DNA of 35,543 nucleotides from Bacteroidota bacterium (GTDB lineage: Bacteria; Bacteroidota; Bacteroidia; Bacteroidales; CG2-30-32-10): assembly GCA_013334735.1 (NCBI GenBank), contig JAAXXA010000002.1:1-35543 (forward strand), given 5' to 3'. The notes under the pieces are model-generated. The model did no database searches and was not told the DNA's origin. It saw nothing but the letters and a program-made list of their open reading frames with translations. Numbering within the stretch: position 1 is the first letter of the stretch; the number at the start of each line of letters is the position of its first letter. Position numbers and translations under genes: made by a program. Below, in pieces: positions 1 through 35,486 of the stretch.

Positions 1-106
1 ACCACGACCACGACCCCGACCTCGACCACGACCTCGACCTCGACCACGACCACGACCCCGACCTCGACCCCGACCACGACCACGACCACGACCCCGACCT
101 CGACCC
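1..106. repeat. Tandem hexamer array (ACCNCG) x17, cut by the window edge
   Basis: There are 17 consecutive ACCNCG units from base 1, with N limited to A, C or T. A 24-nt higher-order unit accacgaccacgaccccgacctcg recurs at 1-24, 43-66 and 79-102. Confidence 0.95.
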
Positions 107-124
107 TATAAAAAACAATCCTAA
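2..124 (+). CDS. Possible 3' end of a plus-strand ORF ending in a (Pro-Arg)n tail (partial)
   Basis: The frame starting at base 2 reads CCN CGA repeatedly, with the variable base at the Pro wobble position. It then reads CCC TAT AAA AAA CAA TCC TAA, with the stop at 122-124. The Gly-Arg frame on the minus strand is immediately preceded by TAG (108..106) and so has no start. A non-coding repeat is an equally open reading. Confidence 0.3.
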   Translation, partial: PRPRPRPRPRPRPRPRPRPRPRPRPRPRPRPRPRPYKKQS

Positions 125-2758: not shown

Positions 2759-2821
2759 AAAAAAAATTAGCCACAACCCCGACCGATTTCTCGGCCCCCG
2801 CAAAGGAAGGGCTGTGGCTAA
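2759..2821 (-). terminator. Intrinsic terminator in the leader of the 2748 gene
   Basis: On the minus strand a 13-bp stem forms (TTAGCCACAGCCC/GGGTTGTGGCTAA, one G-U). Inside it is a 12-nt bulge and a GGCCGA-GAAA-TCGGTC hairpin. The structure is followed by T8 and then GGAGG. Confidence 0.6.
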
Positions 2822-2829
2822 TAAGCCGG

Positions 2830-2863
2830 CCTAATATTTGTTTTGCGGGTGCCAAATATTAGG
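2830..2863 (-). promoter_or_regulatory. Leader hairpin (11-bp perfect stem CCTAATATTTG/CAAATATTAGG)
   Basis: Read directly. Its loop CCCGCAAA (minus) is complementary to TTTGCGGG in the bulge of the downstream terminator. Confidence 0.6.
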
Positions 2864-2923
2864 TCAAAAACTTTTTACAGTTTTTAATTTATTTTTGGAA
2901 AATAATTGATTTATTATTTATTA

Positions 2924-2951
2924 ATTATAACTACATTTTTTAATTTGTCAA
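2924..2951 (-). promoter_or_regulatory. Sigma70-type promoter (TTGACA-16-TATAAT) pointing left
   Basis: The -35 is at 2951..2946 and the -10 at 2929..2924. It overlaps the last codons of the RHH gene. Confidence 0.6.
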
Positions 2952-2952
2952 G

Positions 2953-3108
2953 TCATTTTTTATTTTTTTCTAAAAATTCAATTAATATAGTTTTAACAAG
3001 GTTTGAAATTGGCCTATTTTGTCTTACAGCCTCATCGTTAAGACCCTTCAATAATTCTTCAGAAATGCGAAGATTAAACCTTTTGTTATTTATTTGTCCA
3101 ACATCCAT
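2953..3108 (-). CDS. Ribbon-helix-helix (CopG/Arc-like) DNA-binding protein, 51 aa
   Basis: Hand translation gives MDVGQINNKRFNLRISEELLKGLNDEAVRQNRPISNLVKTILIEFLEKNKK. This fits the classic RHH pattern (beta strand KRFNLRI, then two helices). AAGGACGG lies upstream. The ORF is below the ORF-track cutoff. Confidence 0.75.
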   Translation of the reverse strand: MDVGQINNKRFNLRISEELLKGLNDEAVRQNRPISNLVKTILIEFLEKNKK

Positions 3109-3150: not shown

Positions 3151-3190
3151 TTGCACGACCCTTCCATAAATTTATGCTTTTTTGCACGAC
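3151..3190. promoter_or_regulatory. Direct repeat TTGCACGAC x2 (period 31 nt) upstream of the RHH gene; operator-like
   Basis: Copies lie at 3151-3159 and 3182-3190 (GTCGTGCAA on the minus strand). The spacing is about 3 helical turns. Confidence 0.4.
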
Positions 3191-3244
3191 TTCGGACGTG
3201 CTTTAAGTGGTTTAATGCGGCATTGCTGCCGCACCCGTCACCAT

Positions 3245-3948: not shown

Positions 3949-3973
3949 AAAAATCCCCTTCCTACTTTAAGTA

Positions 3974-4008
3974 GGAGAAAACGGGCCGGGTAATTACTCC
4001 GACCCGGC
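3974..4008 (-). terminator. Hairpin GCCGGGT/ACCCGGC followed by CCGTTTTCTCC
   Basis: A 7-bp GC-rich stem at 4008..4002 / 3991..3985 is followed by a short T tract on the minus strand. It lies downstream of the acidic gene. Confidence 0.45.
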
Positions 4009-4096
4009 GGCTTACCACACCGCAAGGCGACATTAACCGGCTTCGGACGGTTCCTTTCGGAGCGTTTTAATTCCCCCTTTCTGGGGAACCCGTCAA

Positions 4097-4594
4097 CTAA
4101 TAATTATATCTATAACATACATATCTAGACCAATCACAACCGCCAAGATCATCGCTATGGTCTGCAACATCAAGCGGGTCAACTGCATACATAATACCAT
4201 AAGTTATGTCGTCTATATCAATTGTATCCTCAAAGTACTCAGCGTTGCTGTCGTCTCTCATCCCGTCTTGGTAAGGTTGTACATTTAATTTTAGCAATTC
4301 TTCAATAATTTCCGCATCTTTTGCGTTGTCCAACTCAACTGCGTCGTCTGGGACATAAGGATTAGGACTGCCATAGCTAAATTCCTCCGTGTCTACGATC
4401 TCATAAGTTGGTCTGTCCGCCTCTCCATGAGCAAGATAATAAGTCCCGTCCTCTAAGTTGTCAATTACTAATTGTGCCTCTGCCTCTGTCTCGTACTCAT
4501 CACAGTTACTATCAGGATTGCTATTATACCAGTGATCAATATGAGGTGGCAAACTGCCCCTGTAATAACAAGGCGTTACTTTAATCCTATACAT
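4097..4594 (-). CDS. Highly acidic early protein (165 aa), first gene of the leftward operon
   Basis: GGAAGGAG lies upstream. By my count there are about 39 Asp+Glu against 9 Arg+Lys. Confidence 0.85.
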   Translation of the reverse strand: MYRIKVTPCYYRGSLPPHIDHWYNSNPDSNCDEYETEAEAQLVIDNLEDGTYYLAHGEADRPTYEIVDTEEFSYGSPNPYVPDDAVELDNAKDAEIIEELLKLNVQPYQDGMRDDSNAEYFEDTIDIDDITYGIMYAVDPLDVADHSDDLGGCDWSRYVCYRYNY

Positions 4595-4713
4595 ATAATC
4601 TCCTTCCCTCTATTGAGGGAGTGTTACAACCGGAGTAATTAGTTCCGATTGACCCCCTTTTCTTAGGAGGATTTTGAGACCGCAAAACTTTGCGCTCTCT
4701 GTTGTACGCCCAC

Positions 4714-4759
4714 AGTATGACACAGATTTCTAAGTTTGTCAATCCCACTTTCAGTCGGA
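4714..4759 (-). promoter_or_regulatory. Leftward promoter P_A: TCCGACT element + TTGACA-17-TGtCATACT
   Basis: The -35 is at 4742..4737, the -10 at 4719..4714 with an extended TG, and the upstream element AGTCGGA (plus) at 4753-4759. The same architecture occurs at 28675-28719 and 31624-31669. Confidence 0.6.
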
Positions 4760-4928
4760 TTTTTACAAAAATGGGAGAAAATGCTTGTAGATCAAGGAAA
4801 AAAACTTTAAAAAATATTTTTTTTTGTTCAAAAACCCCGACCAAACGTCGGTATTTATGCCAATAATATATATTTAATTATATATAATATAAGTAATAAA
4901 AAAATAGTTGAAAAAAAACAAACTCGTA

Positions 4929-5018
4929 GAACTATTGATAACACTACATTCTTATTTTTTTTGGTATCGTAACTCTATATAAGACAATTAGTCACGAACT
5001 ATTTGACAACACTATATT
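4929..5018 (+). repeat. Two copies of a ~22-nt box GAACTATTGAYAACACTAYATT
   Basis: Copies lie at 4929-4950 and 4996-5018. The second contains the -35 of the rightward promoter. Confidence 0.7.
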
Positions 5019-5032
5019 TTTTATGTTATAAT
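5003..5032 (+). promoter_or_regulatory. Rightward sigma70-type promoter (TTGACA-18-TATAAT)
   Basis: The -35 is at 5003-5008 and the -10 at 5027-5032. It sits upstream of a ~440-nt leader preceding terS. Confidence 0.6.
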
Positions 5033-5252
5033 TCTTCTATAAGAGCTACAATTAGCGACCGAGCTATGCGAGGCAACCGTTTACCCATACGACCAACAAC
5101 TAACAAAATATATACCACAAATATATATTAGGTTTCACAATTATCACATCATCACCCACAAATCAACATCCCAAAAGTATCAAAATTTAGCTATCCACAA
5201 CAAACAAATTCCTATAACATGTATTATGTTAAGTACAACACAGTTTGTATTA

Positions 5253-5273
5253 ACATTGTAGGTACATTGTAGG
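5253..5273 (+). repeat. Tandem ACATTGTAGG x2 (period 11) with a third partial TACAT
   Basis: Read directly at 5253-5262 and 5264-5273. Confidence 0.85.
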
Positions 5274-5330
5274 GGGTACATCAAAAATTGGGGGAGTGTT
5301 TCTAGGTAGGGTTTGTTTAGAGATTACCTC

Positions 5331-5352
5331 TTAATGACATATTAATGACATA
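5331..5352 (+). repeat. Perfect tandem duplication TTAATGACATA x2
   Basis: Read directly at 5331-5341 and 5342-5352, about 130 nt upstream of terS. Confidence 0.9.
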
Positions 5353-5375
5353 TAGGAATTATTTTAGGGGTAAGC

Positions 5376-5501
5376 ATGACAAATTTAGATATGGCATTAC
5401 TGATAGACAGGTATAGAAGAGAGATATGTAGATTATGTAATGTATTGAAGTTAGAAATAATATTTGAGAATGATGGGGTAATATGGAGAATAAGATATTA
5501 A
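5376..5501 (+). CDS. Possible 41-aa ORF overlapping the terS start
   Basis: AGGGGT lies upstream of the ATG at 5376. The translation is MTNLDMALLIDRYRREICRLCNVLKLEIIFENDGVIWRIRY. Support is weak. Confidence 0.25.
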   Translation: MTNLDMALLIDRYRREICRLCNVLKLEIIFENDGVIWRIRY

Positions 5502-13906: not shown

Positions 13907-14059
13907 ATGAAATACATAGATAAGATAATAGTAATAAAAAATAAAGTTGTTAATTTTATTACTAAGTATACTGAATTAAAAGAATTGCATTTAATAAGAA
14001 TTGATAGATATATTGAAGAAAACAAGATGATAGATAAATATATTTATAGAGAGGTATGA
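13907..14059 (+). CDS. Possible 50-aa ORF between the two glycosyltransferase genes
   Basis: The ATG comes directly after the upstream stop, and there is an ATGA overlap with the next start. No motif. Confidence 0.35.
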   Translation: MKYIDKIIVIKNKVVNFITKYTELKELHLIRIDRYIEENKMIDKYIYREV

Positions 14060-15009
14060 TTATAAAAGGAATTGCAATATTTAACTATTACAGCAATTTT
14101 AATGTTGGCGATAAAATTTTTAATCCTGATAGTTATTTAATAGGAGAAAATCTTGGCTATCCTATTATTTGTTTAAAAAATATATTGAATAAAAAAGGAA
14201 TTGAAATACATACTGCTGACTATTTTAACAGGTTTGAAGATATTGACGCAATGATTTATCTGGATCATTTAACTGGATTTGAAAATAGTTTAAAAAGCAT
14301 TAGAAAGGATTATCCTCACATAAAACACTATTTATTAATTATGGAAAATGAGATAATCAAACCAGATAATTATGACAAAAATAACCACAATTTGTATGAC
14401 AAATGTTTCACGTGGAACGATTATTTTGTTGACGGAGAAAGAATTATAAAGTATTGCATAGGTAATAAACTGCAAAATATTATGTTAAGTACGTTTGAAG
14501 AAAAAGAGAAACTCGCTTGTATGATTTGCGGTAATAAAATGGTGAATCATCCTAAAGAACTCTATAGCGAACGGCTTAAAGCTATAGAATTTTTTGAGAA
14601 TAATTATCCAGAAGATTTTGATTTATATGGGTTTGGATGGGATAAGGATAAACATAAATGCTATAAAGGAATGGTCAAGACTAAAACAGATATATACTCA
14701 AAATATAAGTTTGCTTTTTGTTATGAGAACGCTAAAGAAATAGAAGGATATGTTACTGAAAAAATATGGGATGTTCTTATGAGCGGAACTATACCTATTT
14801 ACTATAAAACAAAAGAACTACCAGATTCAATTTATGTTGATATCTGCAAGTTTGATAATTATCAAGAACTGTATAACTATATGAAAAATATGACCAAGAA
14901 TGATTATGAGTTATTCATTAACAATATAAAAGACTATTTAAACAGTGAGGAAGTAAAACGATATTCAGGGGAATATTTTGCCAAAACTATAATAGATAAT
15001 ATCATTTAA
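14056..15009 (+). CDS. GT10-family (alpha-1,3/4-fucosyltransferase-like) glycosyltransferase
   Basis: YKFAFCYENAKEIEGYVTEKIWDVLMSGTIPIYY matches the GT10 signature as I recall it from Helicobacter FucT (FNLCFENTQGYGYVTEKIIDAYFSHTIPIYWG). Confidence 0.75.
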   Translation: MIIKGIAIFNYYSNFNVGDKIFNPDSYLIGENLGYPIICLKNILNKKGIEIHTADYFNRFEDIDAMIYLDHLTGFENSLKSIRKDYPHIKHYLLIMENEIIKPDNYDKNNHNLYDKCFTWNDYFVDGERIIKYCIGNKLQNIMLSTFEEKEKLACMICGNKMVNHPKELYSERLKAIEFFENNYPEDFDLYGFGWDKDKHKCYKGMVKTKTDIYSKYKFAFCYENAKEIEGYVTEKIWDVLMSGTIPIYYKTKELPDSIYVDICKFDNYQELYNYMKNMTKNDYELFINNIKDYLNSEEVKRYSGEYFAKTIIDNII

Positions 15010-28674: not shown

Positions 28675-28719
28675 ATTCTAACACAAAAATAATTTTTGTC
28701 AATCACCCTAAAAGTCGGA
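28675..28719 (-). promoter_or_regulatory. Leftward promoter P_B: TCCGACT element + TTGACA-16-TGtTAGAAT
   Basis: The -35 is at 28702..28697, the -10 at 28680..28675, and the element at 28713-28719. It points antisense toward the end of the late operon. Confidence 0.5.
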
Positions 28720-28735
28720 TTTTTTATTTATATAC

Positions 28736-28777
28736 TCCGACCAAAAGTCGGAATGCACTCCGACTAAAAGTCGGAAT
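28736..28777. promoter_or_regulatory. Two tandem palindromic sites ACTCCGACYAAAAGTCGGAAT (TCCGAC-N5-GTCGGA), operator-like
   Basis: Copies lie at 28736-28754 and 28759-28777 (period 23 nt), between P_B and the 28803 gene. Confidence 0.6.
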
Positions 28778-28802
28778 AAAAATAACATAAGGAGGAACAA
28801 AA

Positions 28803-29069
28803 ATGAAATGGCCTAGAATGCACCATACTAGTTTATTTATAGCTAGCTTTTTAGCTATATTGGGATTAACACTATGGATTGTTGGGTATATACAGGGATG
28901 GAGAGATGTAGCAAACTCAAAAGACTATATAGCTGATCTAGGAATGCTTATCCCAATAATCATTATATTTTTAGGGTTTTCGATTATTGCTTATTTTATT
29001 ACCAGGGCTTTTGATTGCAAAGATATGAATCTAAAAATGATTGAGAAAAAAGAAAATAAGGAGGAATAG
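28803..29069 (+). CDS. Two-TM membrane protein (88 aa), holin-like
   Basis: AAGGAGG RBS and two long hydrophobic helices. Confidence 0.65.
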   Translation: MKWPRMHHTSLFIASFLAILGLTLWIVGYIQGWRDVANSKDYIADLGMLIPIIIIFLGFSIIAYFITRAFDCKDMNLKMIEKKENKEE

Positions 29070-29801: not shown

Positions 29802-30319
29802 GCGGTAGCTCGATTAATTTCCGGTGTACTAACGGAGATCGTTATGATAGCTCTGCTGTATTGCTGGATGATAGAGGGTTTGAGATATTTTCCTCTCAAT
29901 ATGTCAATACCGATTCCACAAACAGCTACAAGGGTGGTCGCCTTTCCTGCGGGTGTTACTATGGGATAGTTGGATATAGGACCTCCGGTCAAAGAGTGAT
30001 AAAACTATTTTCTAGCAAAGCAGATATTACTAAGATCAAAACAGATAGAGACATTCCAGATTCAATGTTTGCTCTTTCATCAGATATACCTAATTCTAAC
30101 CATGACAATGCATATTATATTGAGTATGTTCAAATTCATTCAGGGGGCACAAGCTGGGATTATAGTCATGGATGTGTTTCTGTTTTAAACTATGGATTAA
30201 ATCCTAACGGAAAAAAATATGAAGAATTTGATAGATTGATGTCTTTTCTAAAAGACAATGAAATCATAATCATCAAACTTTCTCTCGACGAAGGAGTCAA
30301 AACTTTTACGCAGCAATAA
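29777..30319 (+). CDS. Candidate endolysin with an SHGC (YkuD/L,D-transpeptidase-like) motif (180 aa from MKILEV)
   Basis: AAGGAG RBS at the internal Met. IHSGGTSWDYSHGCVSV resembles the His...SHGC catalytic signature, though the His-to-Cys spacing is shorter than in the canonical motif. It is the last gene of the lysis region. Confidence 0.4.
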   Translation: MKILEVKRGGSSINFRCTNGDRYDSSAVLLDDRGFEIFSSQYVNTDSTNSYKGGRLSCGCYYGIVGYRTSGQRVIKLFSSKADITKIKTDRDIPDSMFALSSDIPNSNHDNAYYIEYVQIHSGGTSWDYSHGCVSVLNYGLNPNGKKYEEFDRLMSFLKDNEIIIIKLSLDEGVKTFTQQ

Positions 30320-30935
30320 GTTTGCTAATATATTCTACTCCCTTTGCATTTACTAAAGTCTGTGGTTTGTTAAATACATTTCCAGACATCTCTATAGGTT
30401 TTTCAATTACCTTAAAATATCCTTTATCCATTTCTTTCTGATAAGGTGTATTATTTCCCATCAATATATTTTTATTTCTCAATTTAGAAAATAAAGTATT
30501 TCTACCAATTCCTAAAATGTGTGCTACTTCGTTCATTGATTGCCAACTTTCAGAAGATAAAAACTTGTCGTAAGTCAATACTTTTGGTTTCATTGTTTCG
30601 ATTTGTTCTGCTTGATCGGCAGCAAGTCTAAGAGCTTCTGCGAATGTTTGCGGTAATGTAGGTTTATTTTTGTTTTCAAGTTCAATCCAACGGTCAATAA
30701 TTTTTGTTCTCAATTCTACAGAATAACCAGATATTAAAATCATTATTTCACGATGGGGCAATCTATAACATTTTCTTTCTTCTCTATTAGCTCCCATGTA
30801 AACCGCCTCAAATTTGAGGTGGTCATCTAATTGTGTTTCAATATCACGAATTACATTGTCGTGTCTTTTATTTGTTAGTTCGGCAATCTCTCTGCTATCC
30901 ATCCATAATTCCTGCTTGATAATCAAATCATTCAT
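30306..30935 (-). CDS. Rha-family regulatory protein with a KilAC/antirepressor C-terminal domain
   Basis: The N-terminus SREIAELTNKRHDNVIRDIE is typical of Phage_pRha. The C-terminus (WQSMNEVAHILGIGRNTLFSKLR) is typical of KilAC/Ant domains. Confidence 0.8.
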   Translation of the reverse strand: MNDLIIKQELWMDSREIAELTNKRHDNVIRDIETQLDDHLKFEAVYMGANREERKCYRLPHREIMILISGYSVELRTKIIDRWIELENKNKPTLPQTFAEALRLAADQAEQIETMKPKVLTYDKFLSSESWQSMNEVAHILGIGRNTLFSKLRNKNILMGNNTPYQKEMDKGYFKVIEKPIEMSGNVFNKPQTLVNAKGVEYISKLIAA

Positions 30936-31057: not shown

Positions 31058-31086
31058 ATTATACACCAATTTTTATCGTTTGTCAA
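31058..31086 (-). promoter_or_regulatory. Consensus sigma70 promoter (TTGACA-17-TATAAT) pointing left
   Basis: The -35 is at 31086..31081 (overlapping the stop of the upstream gene) and the -10 at 31063..31058. Confidence 0.6.
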
Positions 31087-31598
31087 GGTAAAGGTATTTC
31101 TTGAGTTATCAATATTCTTGCTTTTCTTTCACATTCCTGTGCATTCTCTTCTTCTAAATCATGCTCTTCATCATGAGTTAAATGATAGCATTCATGCATA
31201 ATTGTAACAGCTATATTATCATAACTTACATCTTCTATATAGTTTTTCATAAAGTAACTATCATCCATATTAAATACAAAATAAATAGTATTTTTTCTAG
31301 AATCATCAATATGAGAATCATTAACATAAGCTATAGCTCTCTTGCATATTCCAACTGGATAATAATCAATCTCTATTCTATTTACTTTTGCTAGTCTCAA
31401 TATTTTAATCATGTTTAAATAATTCAGTTTTTCTAACGCAATATAAATCTTAGTAGCAAACTTCTTGGGCGCAGTTACTTTCACACCATAAATCTTAAAC
31501 GTCACTTCTGTATATGGCGCAACCTGATCGTAAGCAGCCGAATGAACAAAAGAAAAAATAAAGAAGATCAATAAAACAACTAAAATAAATCGTTTCAT
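31083..31598 (-). CDS. Secreted HExxH protein (putative zinc metalloprotease), 171 aa
   Basis: It has an N-terminal signal-like MKRFILVVLLIFFIFSFVHSAAY, the HExxH motif in IMHECYHLTHDEEHD, and an AGGAGG RBS. Confidence 0.6.
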   Translation of the reverse strand: MKRFILVVLLIFFIFSFVHSAAYDQVAPYTEVTFKIYGVKVTAPKKFATKIYIALEKLNYLNMIKILRLAKVNRIEIDYYPVGICKRAIAYVNDSHIDDSRKNTIYFVFNMDDSYFMKNYIEDVSYDNIAVTIMHECYHLTHDEEHDLEEENAQECERKARILITQEIPLP

Positions 31599-31623: not shown

Positions 31624-31692
31624 ATTATATATTATTCATTATTGATTTGTCAATCTGCTAACAGTCGGAATTTTATCCTACTTATAGTCGGA
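31624..31692 (-). promoter_or_regulatory. Leftward promoter P_C: two TCCGACT elements + TTGACA-18-TATAAT
   Basis: The -35 is at 31653..31648 and the -10 at 31629..31624. The elements lie at 31663-31669 and 31686-31692. Confidence 0.6.
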
Positions 31693-31890
31693 TTATATTT
31701 TTGTTTGCCTGATTGTTATTTCTATTTTTGTATTGTTTAATACGCAGTGTAACTCACTATAAGAAAAATTTTTCGCAATTATTTCTTTATCTATTTCAGA
31801 TACAAACAATGTTCCGTCTTCTTCTATTTTATCAATATTAAATAATTCGCTAAATGTGGCAAGCCATGTTTTTCCGCTAACAAATTCCAT
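31693..31890 (-). CDS. Hypothetical 65-aa protein
   Basis: GGAGG RBS. It overlaps the end of the SDR gene. Confidence 0.6.
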   Translation of the reverse strand: MEFVSGKTWLATFSELFNIDKIEEDGTLFVSEIDKEIIAKNFSYSELHCVLNNTKIEITIRQTKI

Positions 31891-32656
31891 TTAGTTTCCT
31901 CCATTCTTTGTATTCATAAATTATATTTCGCATTTCATACGCATTATCTACATTATCGTCCTTAAATTTGTTTATAATACCAAAATAATCTAATAAATGA
32001 TGTAACTTTATTGGCCCAACGTTATTTTTTAAATCAAAATAAGTATTTAATTGTGTTTCTAATATTTCATAACTTATTAAAAAATGTCTTATTATATCAT
32101 ATAGTATACGTGGAGTAATGTAATATAACTTTTTATTCTCTCTAGTCGTGATATTAAACTCATCCCCATCTTTAATATGTTTCAATATATTGCTCATTAA
32201 GAATCCACTATCTAAATTTATCCATCTGCTAAAATAGGCTGGTATTCTGAGATCAATAATATTTAATTCCGGCAATAATCTGTGTTTCATTTCTAAGTAT
32301 TGTTTATTAATTTTATAATGATGCTGCCTATCTCCATATCGTATGTCTTTAGTTACAATCCAGCTACTCATATTGATATAAATAGGTTTTGTTTTATGTT
32401 TTAAATAATCAATAATTATATTGTCAATATAATTATAATCCCATAAATCCTGATAATCGATCGTTGATATTTTAGAAGCGGTTCCTTTCCCGACGCAATT
32501 GATTATTATATTAGGGTTTATTTTGTATAAATAATATTGCCATTCACTATCTCTGCATGATAAAGTGCTTAATTGAATATCTTTATCCTGTTCAAAATAG
32601 TATATCAAACCTTTAGCAATATGGCTAGTGCTACCTAATATCAATACTTTTTTCAT
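31877..32656 (-). CDS. SDR-like NAD(P)-dependent sugar reductase or epimerase (259 aa)
   Basis: It has a Rossmann-like N-terminus KKVLILGSTSHIAKG and a YxxxK (YKINK). The sugar-operon context supports the call. Confidence 0.5.
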   Translation of the reverse strand: MKKVLILGSTSHIAKGLIYYFEQDKDIQLSTLSCRDSEWQYYLYKINPNIIINCVGKGTASKISTIDYQDLWDYNYIDNIIIDYLKHKTKPIYINMSSWIVTKDIRYGDRQHHYKINKQYLEMKHRLLPELNIIDLRIPAYFSRWINLDSGFLMSNILKHIKDGDEFNITTRENKKLYYITPRILYDIIRHFLISYEILETQLNTYFDLKNNVGPIKLHHLLDYFGIINKFKDDNVDNAYEMRNIIYEYKEWRKLNGIC

Positions 32657-32657
32657 G

Positions 32658-32981
32658 TTAATCTTTGCTTGTTTCTATAACTTTGTTAATACCATATTCT
32701 ATTATATTATATCCGGTGCGATATATTTTTCCGTGTTCACTATTTTTATAAAATTTTTCATCTGGTAATTTATCTATAGTTGCCTTTTTCCATTTTTCAT
32801 ATTCTTCCCAATCACAAGATAAATAAGTTGTTCCATCAGATCGGGTTAGTATTCTATTTCCACTAGAAATAGCTTTTTTTTTCAAATAATTAACAATTGC
32901 TTTTAAAGCGTTTTCTTTTGTGTCAGACATAACATGATAAGATAATCCATAATCATTGTATTCAAAAGAATATAATTTCAT
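32658..32981 (-). CDS. Hypothetical 107-aa protein in the sugar operon
   Basis: ATGA overlap with the rfbH-like stop. No motif. Confidence 0.7.
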   Translation of the reverse strand: MKLYSFEYNDYGLSYHVMSDTKENALKAIVNYLKKKAISSGNRILTRSDGTTYLSCDWEEYEKWKKATIDKLPDEKFYKNSEHGKIYRTGYNIIEYGINKVIETSKD

Positions 32982-34174
32982 ACAAAATACTCCTCAATAG
33001 TTTTTACAATATAGTCTATTTCCTTCTTTCCAATGCCTGGATGGCAGCCTATCCACAATGTATTTTCAGATACATAATCAGCTATTGGATAATCCTGTTT
33101 ATCGCTATAAGAAAGATAGGCTGGATGCTTAGTAAAGTTACCAGCAAATAGAGGGCGTGTAGCTATTCCTTTTGATTCTAAATAATCAACAAATTGTTTT
33201 CTTCTGTTTTTATTAGAGAGTGTCATGGGGAATCCAAACCATGAAGGAATAGAATCTTTTTCAAATCCATGGAGTTTTAAATCTTTTATGTGTTTTAATT
33301 TCCCAAACAATGTAGAGTTATTCAATACTCTTTTTACTACAAACTTATCTAATCTTTTAAATTGAGCCACACCAATAGAAGCGCATAATTCAGGCATTTT
33401 TAGATTGTATCCAATATGTTCTACCACTGACTTGTGATCATAGCCAAAAGGAAGCTTTCCATATTTCTGAGAGAATCTTTTTCCGCAAAGATTATCTTTA
33501 TTTGGAGGACAAACACAAGCCCTTCCCCAGTTACAATAAGACTGGATAATATTATATAACTCAGTATCATTAGTACAGACCGCCCCTCCCTCGCCTGTAG
33601 TAATGTGATGAGCTGGATAAAAACTTAGTGTTGATATGTGTCCGAATGAACCTGTCTTTTTTTCTTTATACACACTTCCTAAAGCGTCGCAGTTGTCTTC
33701 AATCAACCATAGCTTATGCTTCTTGCAGATAGCCATAATCTTTGTCATGTTGCACGGATTCCCAAGTGTATGCACTATGAATATTGCCTTAGTCTTTTTA
33801 GTTATTTTAGATTCTATTTGATTCTCGTCAATATTAAGTGTATCCAATTTGATATCTACAAACACAGGCACTAGGTTGTTTTGTAATATTGGGTTTAAAG
33901 TAGTAGGAAATCCGCATATAGAAGTAATAACTTCATCTCCAGCTTTAATATGGTTCTTGAGATTTGGAGAAGTTAATGCTGTCATTGCTAACAAGTTAGC
34001 TGAAGACCCTGAATTACAAAGAGCAGTATGTTTTACTCCAAGATATTCTGATAATAGTTTAGGAAGTATTCTTGTGTTTTTCCCTGCCGCATAATCGCCT
34101 TTAAATACTGCTTTAATAAGCGTCCATATTTCTGGAAGTCCTGTGATAGCTTTTCCTGTTGTAATTCGTTTCAT
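32978..34174 (-). CDS. rfbH: RfbH/DdhC (E1)-type PMP-dependent CDP-4-keto-6-deoxyglucose 3-dehydratase
   Basis: Several blocks match Salmonella RfbH as I recall it: SGSSANLLAMTALTSP, GDEVITSICGFPTTLNP, SFYPAHHITTGEGGAV (His in place of the PLP Lys), NWGRACVCPPNKDNLCGKRF (Fe-S Cys cluster), GYDHK, PSWFGFPMTL. Confidence 0.9.
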   Translation of the reverse strand: MKRITTGKAITGLPEIWTLIKAVFKGDYAAGKNTRILPKLLSEYLGVKHTALCNSGSSANLLAMTALTSPNLKNHIKAGDEVITSICGFPTTLNPILQNNLVPVFVDIKLDTLNIDENQIESKITKKTKAIFIVHTLGNPCNMTKIMAICKKHKLWLIEDNCDALGSVYKEKKTGSFGHISTLSFYPAHHITTGEGGAVCTNDTELYNIIQSYCNWGRACVCPPNKDNLCGKRFSQKYGKLPFGYDHKSVVEHIGYNLKMPELCASIGVAQFKRLDKFVVKRVLNNSTLFGKLKHIKDLKLHGFEKDSIPSWFGFPMTLSNKNRRKQFVDYLESKGIATRPLFAGNFTKHPAYLSYSDKQDYPIADYVSENTLWIGCHPGIGKKEIDYIVKTIEEYFV

Positions 34175-34177
34175 TAG

Positions 34178-34891
34178 TTACTCCTTATAATTATCAATAT
34201 AACTTTTTAGTTTTGACACTTCTAAATCTCTCAGTCCTTGTGTGCCTTGATAAACAGCTTGATCGTAAGCGAACCAATTATTCATCTCATCTATAATCAA
34301 TTGATCAGGTTCTACTTTCATAAGCACAGGGCTGGAATGTTCAACCTCTATTTCTTTCAAGTATTCAGTTTTTCCAAGCTTTGAAAATACATAGTATATC
34401 CAGTTGTCAGAGAAGTAATGCTTTAACATATGACACGAATAATTTCTTGTTACCTGCAAGTAATTTTTATGAACTATATAATGACGAGGCAATGTTTCAC
34501 TTCCGGCTCCATCATTAATCCACCTACAAAATATTTTATCTTTTGTGTCTGACTTGAATTTATCTATAATAATCTTATCCCAATCTTTTGTTTTAAATTC
34601 AAGATCATTTGACACAGCAAATAACAATTCATTGTTTGCCATCTGCCCTAAGTAATTAAACTTATCATTGAGATGGTACGGACGTTTAAATTGGTGTAAT
34701 TGATAATCCAATTCTAAATCATTGACGTCTAACTTTTGAAAGAATTCATACAACTGGTCTTCTTCATCTACGTCATAGCCAAACACTATTTCAATATTTT
34801 CTGGATCGTTAACAGTATCAATAATAGATTGCAAACACTTTTTTAGTTTCTCAAGTCGTCCTCTTGTAGCTAGCAATAATGATATCTTCAT
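34178..34891 (-). CDS. Putative GT-A/GT2-like glycosyltransferase (start moved to MKISLLL)
   Basis: AAGGAGG lies upstream of the ATG at 34891. The N-terminus MKISLLLATRGRLEKLKKCLQSIIDT...IEIVFGYDVDEED fits the GT2-like layout. Confidence 0.45.
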   Translation of the reverse strand: MKISLLLATRGRLEKLKKCLQSIIDTVNDPENIEIVFGYDVDEEDQLYEFFQKLDVNDLELDYQLHQFKRPYHLNDKFNYLGQMANNELLFAVSNDLEFKTKDWDKIIIDKFKSDTKDKIFCRWINDGAGSETLPRHYIVHKNYLQVTRNYSCHMLKHYFSDNWIYYVFSKLGKTEYLKEIEVEHSSPVLMKVEPDQLIIDEMNNWFAYDQAVYQGTQGLRDLEVSKLKSYIDNYKE

Positions 34892-34901
34892 GTTTCCTCC
34901 T

Positions 34902-35486
34902 TTATAAACTTGGCAATAATACTTGGTTAGGATCACACATTACTTCGCATATACATGGATTTTTACTATTAATTATTTCATCCAAGCGTTTATCAATTAA
35001 TCCTATATCATCAATTAAATCCCATCGAATGTCATAAGCTTCTGAAAGTGATAATAAATAAGGAAATTTAAAATCAGTTCCATTCCTTGCGCCATTAAAA
35101 AACTTATTGCTTGTGTTTTTTATAGTGAGATACCCGCCATTATTAATCACAAATAGTTTAACATTGAGATTATAATTTCTTATAGTAATCAATTCCTGTA
35201 TGTTAAATTGAAAACTTCCATCACCTGTTAATCCTATCACTGGCCTGTTATCAGCAACAGCCGCTCCCACACAAGCAGGCAATGTAAATCCCATCTCTGC
35301 CTGACTGCTTGTGATATATCTCATTCCTTCTTTAAGCTTTAATGCTTGAGGACAAGCAAAAAATACTGAGCCAGCGTCTGCTATAACTACTGCGTTATCT
35401 GGAAGATGGTCTGATAGCTTTTCTAAAAAATAATAAAGATTAATATTATTATCTGAATTAATTAAATGAGATTGAATTTCCATCAT
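34902..35486 (-). CDS. Thiamine-diphosphate-binding (PP) domain protein, acetolactate-synthase/YerE-like C-terminal module only
   Basis: GLTGDGSFQFNIQELITIRNYNLNVKLFVINNGGY is the ThDP-binding GDG...NN motif. At 194 aa it is only the C-terminal third of a full-length enzyme. Confidence 0.85.
   Translation of the reverse strand: MMEIQSHLINSDNNINLYYFLEKLSDHLPDNAVVIADAGSVFFACPQALKLKEGMRYITSSQAEMGFTLPACVGAAVADNRPVIGLTGDGSFQFNIQELITIRNYNLNVKLFVINNGGYLTIKNTSNKFFNGARNGTDFKFPYLLSLSEAYDIRWDLIDDIGLIDKRLDEIINSKNPCICEVMCDPNQVLLPSL

What the first reader, a model, noticed from the sequence alone, without database searches (positions are those of the whole stretch)
4714..4759. Three leftward promoters share a conserved upstream TCCGACT element at fixed distance: a phage regulon
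On the minus strand, three sites read AAWTCCGACT-N9/10-(GA)TTGACAAA-N16-18-(TGn)-10. P_A is at 4759..4714 and drives the early operon starting with the acidic gene. P_B is at 28719..28675. P_C is at 31669..31624 and drives the secreted HExxH protein. The plus-strand alignment is TTTGTCAATC-N7/8-AGTCGGAWTTTT in all three. Extra copies of the element lie further upstream at P_B (two TCCGAC-N5-GTCGGA palindromes) and at P_C (31686-31692). A variant CCGACCAAACGTCGG lies at 4838-4852. The fixed position just upstream of the -35 is typical of an activator or UP-like site. The palindromic versions are typical of a dimeric regulator.
Basis: seen in the sequence. Interest (0 to 1): 0.7.

Follow-up and report, generated by a model that had tools for sequence, protein, structure and literature searches.

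The report
Shared operator beside three phage promoters
Three strong leftward promoters of an uncultured phage each carry the same 17-bp two-fold-symmetric protein-binding site pressed against the upstream edge of the -35 box; this is a statistically solid but conceptually ordinary phage operator set, and its regulator and sign of action are still untested.

Summary
TCCGACT occurs 7 times against 1.4 expected, and all copies lie in three intergenic clusters. TCCGACT-N9/10-TTGACA occurs 3 times against 0.00 expected.

The heptad is one arm of a 17-bp dyad, TCCGACT-N3-AGTCGGA. I count eight sites:
- three at P_B
- two at P_C
- two at P_A
- one new variant at 3960-3976.

At each promoter the proximal site spans about -52 to -36 (centre -43/-44). 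Its perfect arm is distal, and its degenerate arm abuts the -35.

Three other equally strong promoters (5003+, 2951-, 31086-) lack the site, so it marks a subset of promoters.

Best reading: these are operators for a phage-encoded dimer or dimer-of-dimers. The most likely regulator is the 51-aa Arc-like ribbon-helix-helix protein made from the P_A operon, acting mainly as a feedback repressor. The reasons are that the promoters are near-consensus and that this protein family consists mostly of repressors. Activation is not excluded, because phage Mu Mor binds at -43.5.

No relative carries the motif. The nearest phages share only structural genes, and the early proteins, including the RHH, have no close relatives. 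Conservation therefore could not be tested fairly.

Verdict: a new member of a known kind, of modest interest. Seen in passing: two twister-P5 ribozymes inside the P_A operon.

The parts
4743..4759 (-). PA_O1: promoter-proximal 17-bp operator, TCCGACTGAAAGTGGGA (13/14 to the dyad consensus). It directly abuts the -35 of P_A and spans about -52..-36.
4714..4742 (-). P_A core promoter: TTGACA, 17-nt spacer, TGTGT-CATACT. Predicted TSS about 4707. Drives a 113-nt structured leader, then the acidic 165-aa gene.
4836..4852 (-). PA_O2: distal variant dyad, ACCGACGTTTGGTCGGG (CCGAC-N5-GTCGG). Centre about -137, 93 bp from PA_O1. Lies between the divergent promoters P_A and the 5003(+) promoter.
   Evidence: (D12)
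28703..28719 (-). PB_O1: proximal operator, TCCGACTTTTAGGGTGA (11/14). Abuts the -35 of P_B.
28675..28702 (-). P_B core promoter: TTGACA, 16-nt spacer, TGTGT-TAGAAT. Predicted TSS about 28668. No ORF or stable RNA structure downstream. Antisense to the plus-strand late or lysis-like genes.
28736..28752 (-). PB_O2: TCCGACTTTTGGTCGGA (13/14). Centre about -76, 33 bp from O1.
28759..28775 (-). PB_O3: TCCGACTTTTAGTCGGA, a perfect 14/14 dyad. Centre about -99, 23 bp from O2 (6-bp spacer).
31653..31669 (-). PC_O1: proximal operator, TCCGACTGTTAGCAGAT (10/14). Overlaps the -35 of P_C by 1 bp.
31624..31653 (-). P_C core promoter: TTGACA, 18-nt spacer, TATAAT (12/12). Predicted TSS about 31617. Drives the 171-aa signal-peptide/HExxH gene at 31083-31598.
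31676..31692 (-). PC_O2: TCCGACTATAAGTAGGA (13/14). Centre about -67, 23 bp from PC_O1 (6-bp spacer). Begins one base after the upstream 65-aa ORF (31693-31890).
   Evidence: (D14)
3960..3976 (-). Possible eighth site: the perfect variant palindrome TCCTACTTAAAGTAGGA (12/14). It lies inside the P_A transcription unit, 12 nt upstream of the ATG of the 119-aa gene. Not at a promoter; role uncertain.
2953..3108 (-). Candidate regulator: a 51-aa basic (pI 9.7) Arc/CopG-like ribbon-helix-helix protein. It is the last gene before the operator-less promoter at 2951.
   Evidence: no homologues
4097..4594 (-). First gene of the P_A unit: 165 aa, pI 4.05. No family match.
31083..31598 (-). Gene driven by P_C: 171 aa, with a signal-peptide-like N-terminus and an HECYH motif. 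A 38%-identical orthologue exists in relative L086, without the promoter/operator.

Best explanation
The TCCGACT elements are arms of a 17-bp dyad operator, TCCGACT-N3-AGTCGGA. A phage-encoded sequence-specific DNA-binding protein binds it as a dimer or dimer-of-dimers.

Seven or eight copies sit in three clusters. At each of the three sigma-A-type promoters P_A, P_B and P_C, one copy occupies about -52 to -36. Its consensus arm is distal and its weak arm touches the -35 box. Stronger, fully symmetric copies lie 23-93 bp further upstream.

The most likely binder is the 51-aa Arc-like ribbon-helix-helix protein encoded at the end of the P_A-specific part of the early operon. In the most likely mode, the three near-consensus promoters fire at once on infection. 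The regulator then accumulates and fills the strong distal dyads. By cooperativity it also fills the weak proximal sites. It then shuts the three promoters down by hindering sigma region 4 or alpha-CTD contacts, or open-complex formation. This would be a negative feedback loop like Arc at P22 Pant, CopG at Pcr or omega2 at its three promoters. Three operator-less promoters (2951-, 31086-, 5003+) would keep running.

Shown: the sites, their symmetry, their positions and their statistics.
Inferred: that a protein binds them, which protein it is, and the sign of regulation.

Rough sub-probabilities:
- protein operator set: 0.85
- phage-encoded regulator: 0.75
- the regulator is the RHH: 0.4
- net repression: 0.55

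The overall confidence given (0.45) is for the core claim, a phage-encoded operator set acting mainly by repression. It is not for every detail jointly.
For: Enrichment and fixed geometry:
- 7 against 1.4 heptads.
- 3 against 0.00 for the heptad-to-(-35) composite.
- Dyad matches of at least 12/14: 5 observed against 0.01 expected per shuffle.
- GTCGGA is the only 6-bp dyad arm that recurs in the window.

Alignment of the three promoter regions shows identity confined to AAAAWTCCGACT, AG and GATTGACAAA, with unrelated spacers. That indicates constraint on function, not recent duplication.

The asymmetry of the proximal sites (perfect arm distal, A-tract 5' of it) follows the orientation of the minus-strand promoter even at P_B, where the surrounding genes are on the plus strand. 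This argues for a DNA-level, promoter-linked role.

Proximal sites are centred at -43/-44, and the heptad-to-(-10) distance is 39-40 nt in all three.

Tandem 17-bp sites are separated by 6-bp spacers at both P_B and P_C.

Only 3 of 6 strong TTGACAA promoters carry the site.

For repression: -35 boxes are 6/6, and -10 regions are 4-6/6 with TGTG extensions.

The RHH is supported by PHROG Arc-like repressor families (E 1.5e-5 and 1.9e-5), sub-threshold Pfam RHH_5/CopG_antitoxin hits, and weak PDB hits to CdbA, YiiF and a CopG-family regulator. No other classical DNA-binding domain was found except Rha/ANT.

Precedents:
- omega2 (RHH) reads 7-bp heptads in direct or inverted orientation in the upstream regions of three promoters, and represses at full occupancy (PMC4627068).
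- CopG nucleates on a symmetric element at the -35 and spreads cooperatively over about 50 bp (PMC2724298).
Against: - No experimental data exist: no TSS mapping and no binding assay.
- No evolutionary support is available. The motif is absent from all fetched relatives and from pattern scans of IMG/VR, JGI metagenomes and GTDB genomes, which gave only chance-level, mostly high-GC hits.
- The RHH assignment is below Pfam's curated thresholds. The protein has no detectable homologues, so no protein-operator co-variation can be shown.
- The contig is incomplete: genes run off both ends. The true regulator may lie outside the window.
- The site does not overlap the core promoter. A fixed position centred near -43.5 is exactly where the Mu activator Mor binds (PMC4390567).
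- omega2 itself activates at low occupancy (PMC4627068), so the sign of regulation is open.
- Site 3960-3976 is not at a promoter.
Confidence: 0.45

Rival explanations
1. Same operator set, but the bound protein is a transcription activator. It would act like a class II or Mor/C-type factor that touches sigma region 4 or alpha-CTD from a site centred near -43.5, or like omega2 at low occupancy. It would boost P_A, P_B and P_C as a positive or timed switch.
For: - The position is strictly fixed relative to the promoter: centre -43/-44, and heptad-to-(-10) distance 39-40 nt.
- The site never overlaps the -35/-10 core.
- A Mor dimer binds a 16-bp dyad centred at -43.5 (PMC4390567).
- P_A has a weaker -10, CATACT, 4/6.
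Against: - All three promoters have a perfect TTGACA and good spacing. P_C is 12/12 and P_B 11/12 plus TG.
- Mor/C-dependent promoters lack a typical -35 (PMC2582627).
- No Mor/C-like or other activator family was detected among the window's proteins.
- The one candidate binder belongs to a family of mostly repressors.
Confidence: 0.25
2. The sites are read by a host transcription factor, so that the phage ties three promoters to host physiology. The model is the Spo0A 0A boxes at phi29 early promoters (recalled from my own knowledge), or some unknown palindrome-binding regulator of a Firmicute host.
For: - AGTCGGA resembles the 0A box TGTCGAA at 5 of 7 positions (by eye).
- The TRTG -16 motifs and strong Shine-Dalgarno sites suggest a Gram-positive-type host.
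- Absence of the motif from relatives could reflect different hosts.
Against: - Every half-site has GG where the 0A box requires GA. The true 0A box occurs once, inside a gene, below chance.
- The sites are inverted repeats of 17 bp, whereas Spo0A uses tandem boxes (my knowledge).
- The scan of 185,579 species genomes for the tandem-operator pattern gave 3 hits, all in high-GC Actinomycetota or Acidobacteriota. This is chance level, with no low-GC regulon signal.
Confidence: 0.07
3. The palindromes act as RNA hairpins, not as DNA sites. At P_B they would form a two-hairpin leader of the plus-strand 88-aa membrane-protein gene, like the freshwater-2 candidate RNA. At 3960-3976 they would form a hairpin next to a ribosome-binding site.
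For: - Sub-threshold Rfam match to freshwater-2 (RF02980) at 28736-28805(+), covering two hairpins plus SD plus AUG (28.4 bits, E 0.0085 on the 201-bp stretch).
- The variant TCCTACT...AGTAGGA keeps pairing by a change in both arms.
Against: - The score is far below the gathering score of 49.9.
- The three promoter-proximal copies cannot form hairpins because their right arms are degenerate.
- PC_O2 and PA_O1 would each carry a mismatch at the fourth stem pair (G-A and G-G).
- The conserved geometry is to the -35/-10 of minus-strand promoters, and orientation follows the promoter rather than the local transcript.
- The proximal sites lie upstream of their own TSS.
Confidence: 0.05
4. There is no regulator. 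The similarity is left over from duplication of one promoter cassette, or the P_B cluster (three sites plus an AT-rich spacer plus a non-coding transcript) is a replication origin or iteron region whose initiator also marks P_A and P_C.
For: - A 35-nt stretch is 80% identical between 4820-4854 and 28720-28754, and a 36-nt stretch is 75% identical between 28743-28778 and 31660-31695 (D12 and D14).
- P_B has no product that I can find.
- No replication genes or origin were identified in the window.
Against: - Identity is restricted to the dyad arms and -35, with unrelated spacers. A duplication remnant would not decay in that pattern.
- The dyad itself recurs 7-8 times with symmetric arms.
- Iterons are normally direct repeats.
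- No initiator-like protein was detected.
Confidence: 0.05

Closest known systems
omega2 repressor of plasmid pSM19035 (ribbon-helix-helix) and its operators at PcopS, Pdelta and Pomega (PMC4627068)
   Same: - A small RHH regulator in a sigma-A (Firmicute) setting.
- 7-bp half-sites, each read by one dimer and usable in inverted orientation.
- Sites lie in the upstream regions of three separate promoters, which form one regulon that includes the regulator's own operon.
- Occupancy-dependent repression.
   Different: - omega heptads are contiguous arrays of 6-10 units that reach over the -35 (protection -72 to -21). Here there are pairs of heptads separated by 3 bp, 1-3 dyads per promoter, stopping at the edge of the -35.
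- The sequences are unrelated.
- Binding here is untested.
P22 immI: Arc and Mnt RHH repressors at Pant/Pmnt (own knowledge; Arc/CopG comparison in PMC2724298)
   Same: - A protein of about 51-53 aa with PHROG 'Arc-like repressor' matches.
- A dyad operator of 17-21 bp bound (in P22) by a dimer of dimers.
- The regulator is encoded downstream of a promoter it would repress.
- An antirepressor-type gene (Rha/ANT, 30306-30935) lies in the P_C transcription unit.
- The phage has a P22-type portal.
   Different: - Arc and Mnt operators lie within or over the core promoter. Here they lie upstream of the -35.
- There are three dispersed promoters rather than one divergent pair.
- No significant pairwise similarity to Arc.
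- No evidence that this phage is temperate.
Phage Mu Mor/C activators (PMC4390567, PMC2582627)
   Same: A dimer-sized dyad of 16-17 bp centred at about -43.5, at several promoters of one phage.
   Different: - Mor/C promoters lack a -35 hexamer and depend fully on the activator. Here the -35 is consensus.
- No Mor/C-family protein was found in the window.
Lambda-type tandem 17-bp operators (own knowledge)
   Same: 17-bp dyads with AT-rich centres, in tandem with 6-bp spacers (23 bp centre to centre) at P_B and P_C. Affinities are graded by departures from symmetry.
   Different: - Lambda operators overlap the -35/-10 of PR and PRM and control a divergent switch.
- No CI/Cro-like HTH protein was detected here.

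Membership tests
sigma-70/sigma-A-type promoter | -35 TTGACA and -10 TATAAT-like hexamers 16-18 bp apart | tested here: met
   P_A 10/12 plus TG, P_B 11/12 plus TG, P_C 12/12.
sigma-70/sigma-A-type promoter | A transcript 5' end about 7 nt downstream of the -10 | not testable with these tools
   No transcript data. Predicted TSS about 4707, 28668 and 31617.
Dyad operator of a dimeric/tetrameric regulator | Two-fold symmetric site recurring beyond chance at regulated promoters | tested here: met
   5 sites of at least 12/14 against 0.01 expected. Composite with the -35: 3 against 0.00.
Dyad operator of a dimeric/tetrameric regulator | Conservation or co-variation with the regulator in related genomes | tested here: inconclusive
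   The motif is absent in L072-L075 and L086-L089. Those relatives share only structural genes and lack the RHH and the promoters. Collection scans gave chance hits only.
Dyad operator of a dimeric/tetrameric regulator | Specific binding by a cognate protein | not testable with these tools
   Needs EMSA or footprinting.
Arc/Mnt/CopG/omega RHH repressor-operator systems | An RHH-fold protein encoded in the element | tested here: inconclusive
   PHROG Arc-like E 1.5e-5. Pfam RHH_5 at 19.7 bits is below the cut-off of 26. PDB hits E 0.13-0.6. The single-sequence AF2 monomer model was all-helical and uninformative.
Arc/Mnt/CopG/omega RHH repressor-operator systems | Operator overlaps the core promoter (-35/-10) | tested here: not met
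   Proximal sites end at -36/-35. They abut the -35, or overlap it by 1 bp only.
Arc/Mnt/CopG/omega RHH repressor-operator systems | The regulator gene lies in a transcription unit it controls (autoregulation) | tested here: met
   The RHH gene (2953-3108) lies downstream of P_A, with no operator-less consensus (12/12) promoter in between. Two unassessed promoter-like matches lie inside the 165-aa ORF (4552..4523, 11/12; 4464..4436, 11/12). This rests on position only.
Class II / Mor-C type activator site | Dyad centred at about -41.5 to -43.5 | tested here: met
   Centres at -43/-44, assuming a TSS 7 nt after the -10.
Class II / Mor-C type activator site | The target promoter is defective (poor or absent -35) without the activator | tested here: not met
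   The -35 is TTGACA, 6/6, in all three. Compare PMC2582627.
Spo0A 0A box | TGTCGAA core, usually in tandem | tested here: not met
   The exact-consensus arms read GTCGGA; variant arms read GTAGGA or GTGGGA, and none reads GTCGAA. The sites are inverted repeats. TGTCGAA occurs once, in coding sequence.
freshwater-2 RNA (RF02980) | Score at or above Rfam's gathering score | tested here: not met
   28.4 bits against 49.9.
UP element | A/T-rich sequence from -40 to -60 contacted by alpha-CTD | tested here: not met
   The conserved core is the G+C-rich TCCGAC. Only the A4-5 tract 5' of it (about -53 to -58) is UP-like.

The most novel reading that the evidence does not exclude
A single tiny orphan RHH protein runs a three-promoter early shut-off circuit. 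Its operators work from just outside the -35 of consensus promoters. One of the three promoters (P_B) makes no protein. Instead it fires head-on into the late or lysis-like cluster, so that regulator accumulation would time lysis-gene expression through transcriptional interference or antisense RNA. All of this sits in a previously undescribed phage lineage whose early operon is also cut by twister ribozymes.
Probability: 0.12. Interest if true: 0.55.

Novelty: new member of a known kind. Interest (0 to 1): 0.3.

Why it matters
If confirmed, this gives a compact, fully specified regulatory part list for a phage lineage with no cultured relatives: a 17-bp operator, three target promoters, three non-target control promoters and a 51-aa candidate regulator.

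It would also be a clean case for studying how a protein bound just outside the -35 of an already optimal promoter controls it. The question there is repression without core overlap versus activation.

It does not open a long-standing question. Operators shared by several phage promoters are textbook biology.

Tried and rejected
1. Phylogenetic footprinting.
- Megablast and tblastn against 50,697 GenBank phages found nothing for the genome or the portal.
- A terminase scan of IMG/VR found no relative.
- Homologues of the terminase and the 1250-aa tail protein led to eight contigs (L072-L075, L086-L089).
- None of these has TCCGAC dyads or the composite promoter. They share only structural genes plus a few right-arm genes.
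- The orthologue of the P_C-driven gene in L086 has a different upstream region.

2. DNA-pattern hunts.
- I searched for the composite (heptad + -35) in IMG/VR, and for the tandem-operator pattern in IMG/VR, JGI metagenomes and GTDB genomes.
- Hit numbers were at chance level, none had several copies, and most were high-GC.

3. Regulator by co-occurrence.
- The RHH has no homologue.
- The seven early, lysis-region and right-arm proteins found in the collection are all singletons at 90% identity. Three further queries were not in the collection.

4. RHH structure. The single-sequence AF2 monomer came out all-helical, so I did not run a fold search. The shared FNLR strand motif is an observation by eye only.

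5. Hidden weak sites. One-mismatch heptads are at chance level.

6. Product of P_B. There is no ORF with a ribosome-binding site. The 130-nt transcript folds no better than shuffles (z -0.31). Only chance-level Rfam hits lie on the minus strand there.

7. Analogous operator in relatives. L072 has divergent consensus promoters without a shared dyad. L086 has its own dyad, GTCACAAACTGTGAC, twice, with one copy 21 bp upstream of a promoter. That copy also looks like a terminator, so it is not counted as support.

8. Spo0A box and UP element. Both rejected on sequence.
Full report
**1. What is in the sequence**

The window is a whole but incomplete contig of 35,543 bp at about 33% G+C. It has the layout of a tailed phage:
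- a leftward early arm (4844 to 1)
- a rightward structural, tail and lysis-like arm (5483 to 30319), with terminase and a P22-type portal
- a second leftward arm (35486 to 30306), with sugar-modification genes, a secreted HExxH protein and a Rha/ANT antirepressor-type protein.

Genes run off both ends.

- P_A: aaaaaTCCGACTgaaagtgggaTTGACAAA-(17)-TGTGTCATACT
- P_B: aaaaaaTCCGACTtttagggtgaTTGACAAA-(16)-TGTGTTAGAAT
- P_C: aaaatTCCGACTgttagcagaTTGACAAA-(18)-TATAAT

The (17/16/18) figure is the -35-to-(-10) hexamer spacer. The spacers are counted from TTGACA.

**2. Is it more than chance?**

Yes.
- TCCGACT occurs 7 times against 1.40 +/- 1.13 expected, and no shuffle of 100 reaches 7. All seven lie in three intergenic clusters.
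- TCCGACT-N{9,10}-TTGACA occurs 3 times against 0.00 expected.
- One-mismatch heptads are at background (58 against 45). The signal is therefore a small, sharp set and not a compositional bias.

**3. What the element really is**

Reading 17 bp from each TCCGACT shows a dyad, TCCGACT-N3-AGTCGGA.

| Site | Coordinates | Sequence | Match |
|---|---|---|---|
| PB_O3 | 28775..28759 | TCCGACTTTTAGTCGGA | 14/14 |
| PB_O2 | 28752..28736 | TCCGACTTTTGGTCGGA | 13/14 |
| PC_O2 | 31692..31676 | TCCGACTATAAGTAGGA | 13/14 |
| PA_O1 | 4759..4743 | TCCGACTGAAAGTGGGA | 13/14 |
| PB_O1 | 28719..28703 | TCCGACTTTTAGGGTGA | 11/14 |
| PC_O1 | 31669..31653 | TCCGACTGTTAGCAGAT | 10/14 |
| PA_O2 | 4852..4836 | ACCGACGTTTGGTCGGG | 10/14 |
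| new site | 3976..3960 | TCCTACTTAAAGTAGGA | 12/14 |

- Matches of at least 12/14 are expected 0.01 times per shuffled genome, and five are seen.
- GTCGGA is the only 6-bp dyad arm that recurs in the window.
- The fourth position of the arm (G, or T in the variants) is the most tolerant.

Geometry, assuming a TSS 7 nt after the -10:
- The promoter-proximal site spans about -52 to -36, centre -43/-44.
- Its perfect arm is always distal. Its degenerate arm always touches the -35. An A4-5 tract always lies just 5' of it.
- The heptad-to-(-10) distance is 39-40 nt in all three promoters.
- Distal sites are centred at about -67 (P_C), -76 and -99 (P_B), and -137 (P_A).
- Where sites are tandem they are 23 bp centre to centre, with 6-bp spacers, at both P_B and P_C.

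**4. Context**

The phage has six outstanding sigma-70/sigma-A-type promoters, all with TTGACAA. Three have operators: P_A, P_B and P_C. Three are 12/12 consensus promoters without one: 5003(+) before the structural genes, 2951(-) right after the RHH gene, and 31086(-) before the Rha/ANT gene. The element therefore marks a subset, which is what a regulon predicts. It also means that 'GATTGACAAA' is only partly specific to the three.

The TGTG motif before the -10 of P_A and P_B, together with strong Shine-Dalgarno sites, points to a Gram-positive-type host (sequence, plus own knowledge of the -16 TRTG motif).

What each promoter drives:
- P_A drives a 113-nt leader that folds far better than shuffles (z -5.6), then the acidic 165-aa gene (pI 4.05). 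Further down are a 119-aa zinc-ribbon protein, a 54-aa protein and the 51-aa RHH. Two twister-P5 ribozymes lie in between.
- P_C drives the 171-aa signal-peptide/HExxH gene.
- P_B drives nothing that I can identify. There is no ORF with a ribosome-binding site and no stable fold. It points head-on into plus-strand genes for small two-TM proteins.

**5. DNA site or RNA hairpin?**

Rfam gives a sub-threshold match of the two P_B palindromes plus the ribosome-binding site of the plus-strand 88-aa gene to the freshwater-2 candidate RNA (28.4 bits against a gathering score of 49.9).

I rank this low, for three reasons:
- The three proximal copies cannot form hairpins.
- Two of the good dyads would each carry a mismatched stem pair.
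- The conserved geometry and the asymmetry follow the minus-strand promoters, even where the local genes are on the plus strand.

**6. Who binds, and with what effect?**

Family searches of the early and right-arm proteins (Pfam and PHROGs) find only two DNA-binding candidates.
- The 51-aa basic protein at 2953-3108. It matches PHROG 'Arc-like repressor' (E 1.5e-5 and 1.9e-5), Pfam RHH_5/CopG_antitoxin below threshold, and weakly the PDB entries CdbA, YiiF and a CopG-family regulator.
- The Rha/ANT protein.

A pair of 7-bp arms about 10 bp apart centre to centre suits either an HTH dimer or two RHH dimers in adjacent major grooves.

RHH precedents fit well:
- omega2 reads 7-bp heptads in direct or inverted orientation in the upstream regions of three promoters. 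It activates weakly at low occupancy and represses at full occupancy (PMC4627068).
- CopG nucleates on a symmetric element at the -35 and spreads cooperatively over about 50 bp (PMC2724298).

The RHH gene is the last gene before the operator-less promoter at 2951. A loop in which P_A makes the RHH, and the RHH then represses P_A, P_B and P_C, is therefore positionally coherent.

I favour repression because the promoters are already near-consensus. However, the position matches that of Mu Mor (a 16-bp dyad centred at -43.5; PMC4390567), even though Mor/C promoters lack a -35 (PMC2582627). Activation therefore keeps about a quarter of the probability.

**7. Comparative test**

This is the weak point.
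- Nothing in GenBank phages resembles the genome or the portal.
- The terminase has nine relatives among 5.8 billion proteins, the best at 66% identity.
- The tail protein has relatives at 77% and 56%.
- The eight contigs fetched share structural genes and a few right-arm genes only.
- None has a TCCGAC dyad or the composite.
- The L086 orthologue (38% identity) of the P_C-driven gene has an unrelated upstream region.
- Pattern scans of IMG/VR, JGI metagenomes and 185,579 species genomes returned chance-level hits only.
- The RHH has no homologue, and the seven early, lysis-region and right-arm proteins found in the collection are singletons at 90% identity.

It is uninformative, because no relative retains the promoters or the candidate regulator.

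**8. Comparison with known systems, and verdict**

Functionally this is a phage operator set of the Arc/Mnt/CopG/omega or lambda kind. It differs in three ways:
- Every promoter-proximal site stops at the edge of the -35 rather than overlapping the core.
- The strongest sites are distal.
- One target promoter is a non-coding antisense promoter inside the late or lysis-like cluster.

It fails the defining tests for a Mor/C-type activator target, a 0A box, an UP element and freshwater-2 RNA.

Novelty: a new member of a known kind. Interest is modest (0.3). The observation is clean and experimentally tractable, but the concept is ordinary, and the mechanism (binder and sign) remains inferred.

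Noticed in passing
window 3185-3242 (-) and 4036-4097 (-); L072 2063-2118 (-): Two type-P5 twister ribozymes lie inside the P_A early operon (50.3 and 38.3 bits; gathering score 37.6). One follows the acidic gene and one precedes the RHH gene. The 66%-terminase relative L072 also has one in its leftward early operon (45.7 bits). Self-cleaving ribozymes between early genes look like a lineage trait.
   Followed up: partly
window 4595-4707 (-): The 113-nt leader between P_A and the acidic gene folds into four consecutive hairpins: -41.1 kcal/mol, z -5.6, and 0 of 200 shuffles fold as well. No Rfam match.
   Followed up: partly
window 2761-2952 (-) and 443-892: These are G+C-rich, hairpin-rich non-coding stretches in the early arm. 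One lies upstream of the 75-aa gene. The other is a 450-bp ORF-free gap with terminator-like hairpins at 600-615 and 865-884. They may be further structured RNAs.
   Followed up: no
window 1-117: The contig starts in a tandem hexamer repeat, (ACC-NCG)n with about 19 units. Read on the minus strand it follows an ATG at 126 and runs off the end. This probably explains why the assembly broke here. The repeat unit NCGACC contains the CGAC core of the operator, which is probably coincidence.
   Followed up: no
window 5003-5032 (+), 2924-2951 (-), 31058-31086 (-): Three perfect 12/12 TTGACA/TATAAT promoters have no TCCGAC operator. The region around 5003 also has an upstream near-duplicate of its -35 segment: GAACTATTGATAACACTACATT (4929-4950) against GAACTATTTGACAACACTATATT (4997-5019).
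   Followed up: partly
window 31877-35486 (-), 14056-15009 (+): There is a phage-borne sugar or cofactor-type gene set: TPP_enzyme_C (194 aa), a GT2-like protein (252 aa), a DegT/EryC1 aminotransferase (398 aa, E 2e-90) and a Rossmann-like 259-aa protein. A Glyco_transf_10 (fucosyltransferase-family) gene sits inside the structural module. Relatives carry Transket_pyr, Transketolase_N and epimerase genes in the same arm.
   Followed up: no
window 31692-31719 (-): A weaker promoter-like site, ATAACA-16-TATAAT (10/12), ends exactly at the first base of PC_O2. That dyad would therefore cover its start site, which is a classical repressor position if the promoter is real.
   Followed up: no
L074 1-5500: The 44%-terminase relative has a long leftward array of small genes separated by about 140-bp spacers. 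The spacers share repeated elements (for example CGCACAACATGCGCTATAC, six copies). There is also a 33-bp tandem repeat in 10 copies at 4985-5437, and a tRNA-like hit at 4659-4780.
   Followed up: no
L086 14917-14931 and 15582-15608: The 77%-tail-protein relative has its own recurring dyad, GTCACAAACTGTGAC. The second copy sits within a 12-bp-arm palindrome 21 bp upstream of a TTGACT-17-TATACT promoter. It could be a lineage-specific operator or simply a terminator.
   Followed up: partly
L076 2156-2185 (Streptomyces sp. AV19): Tandem dyads TCCGACTAAATGTCGGA-N6-TCCGACTCCTTGTCGGC lie in an intergenic-looking stretch of a 65% G+C genome. The operator-like architecture is the same. I treat this as coincidence or an unrelated regulator.
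   Followed up: no
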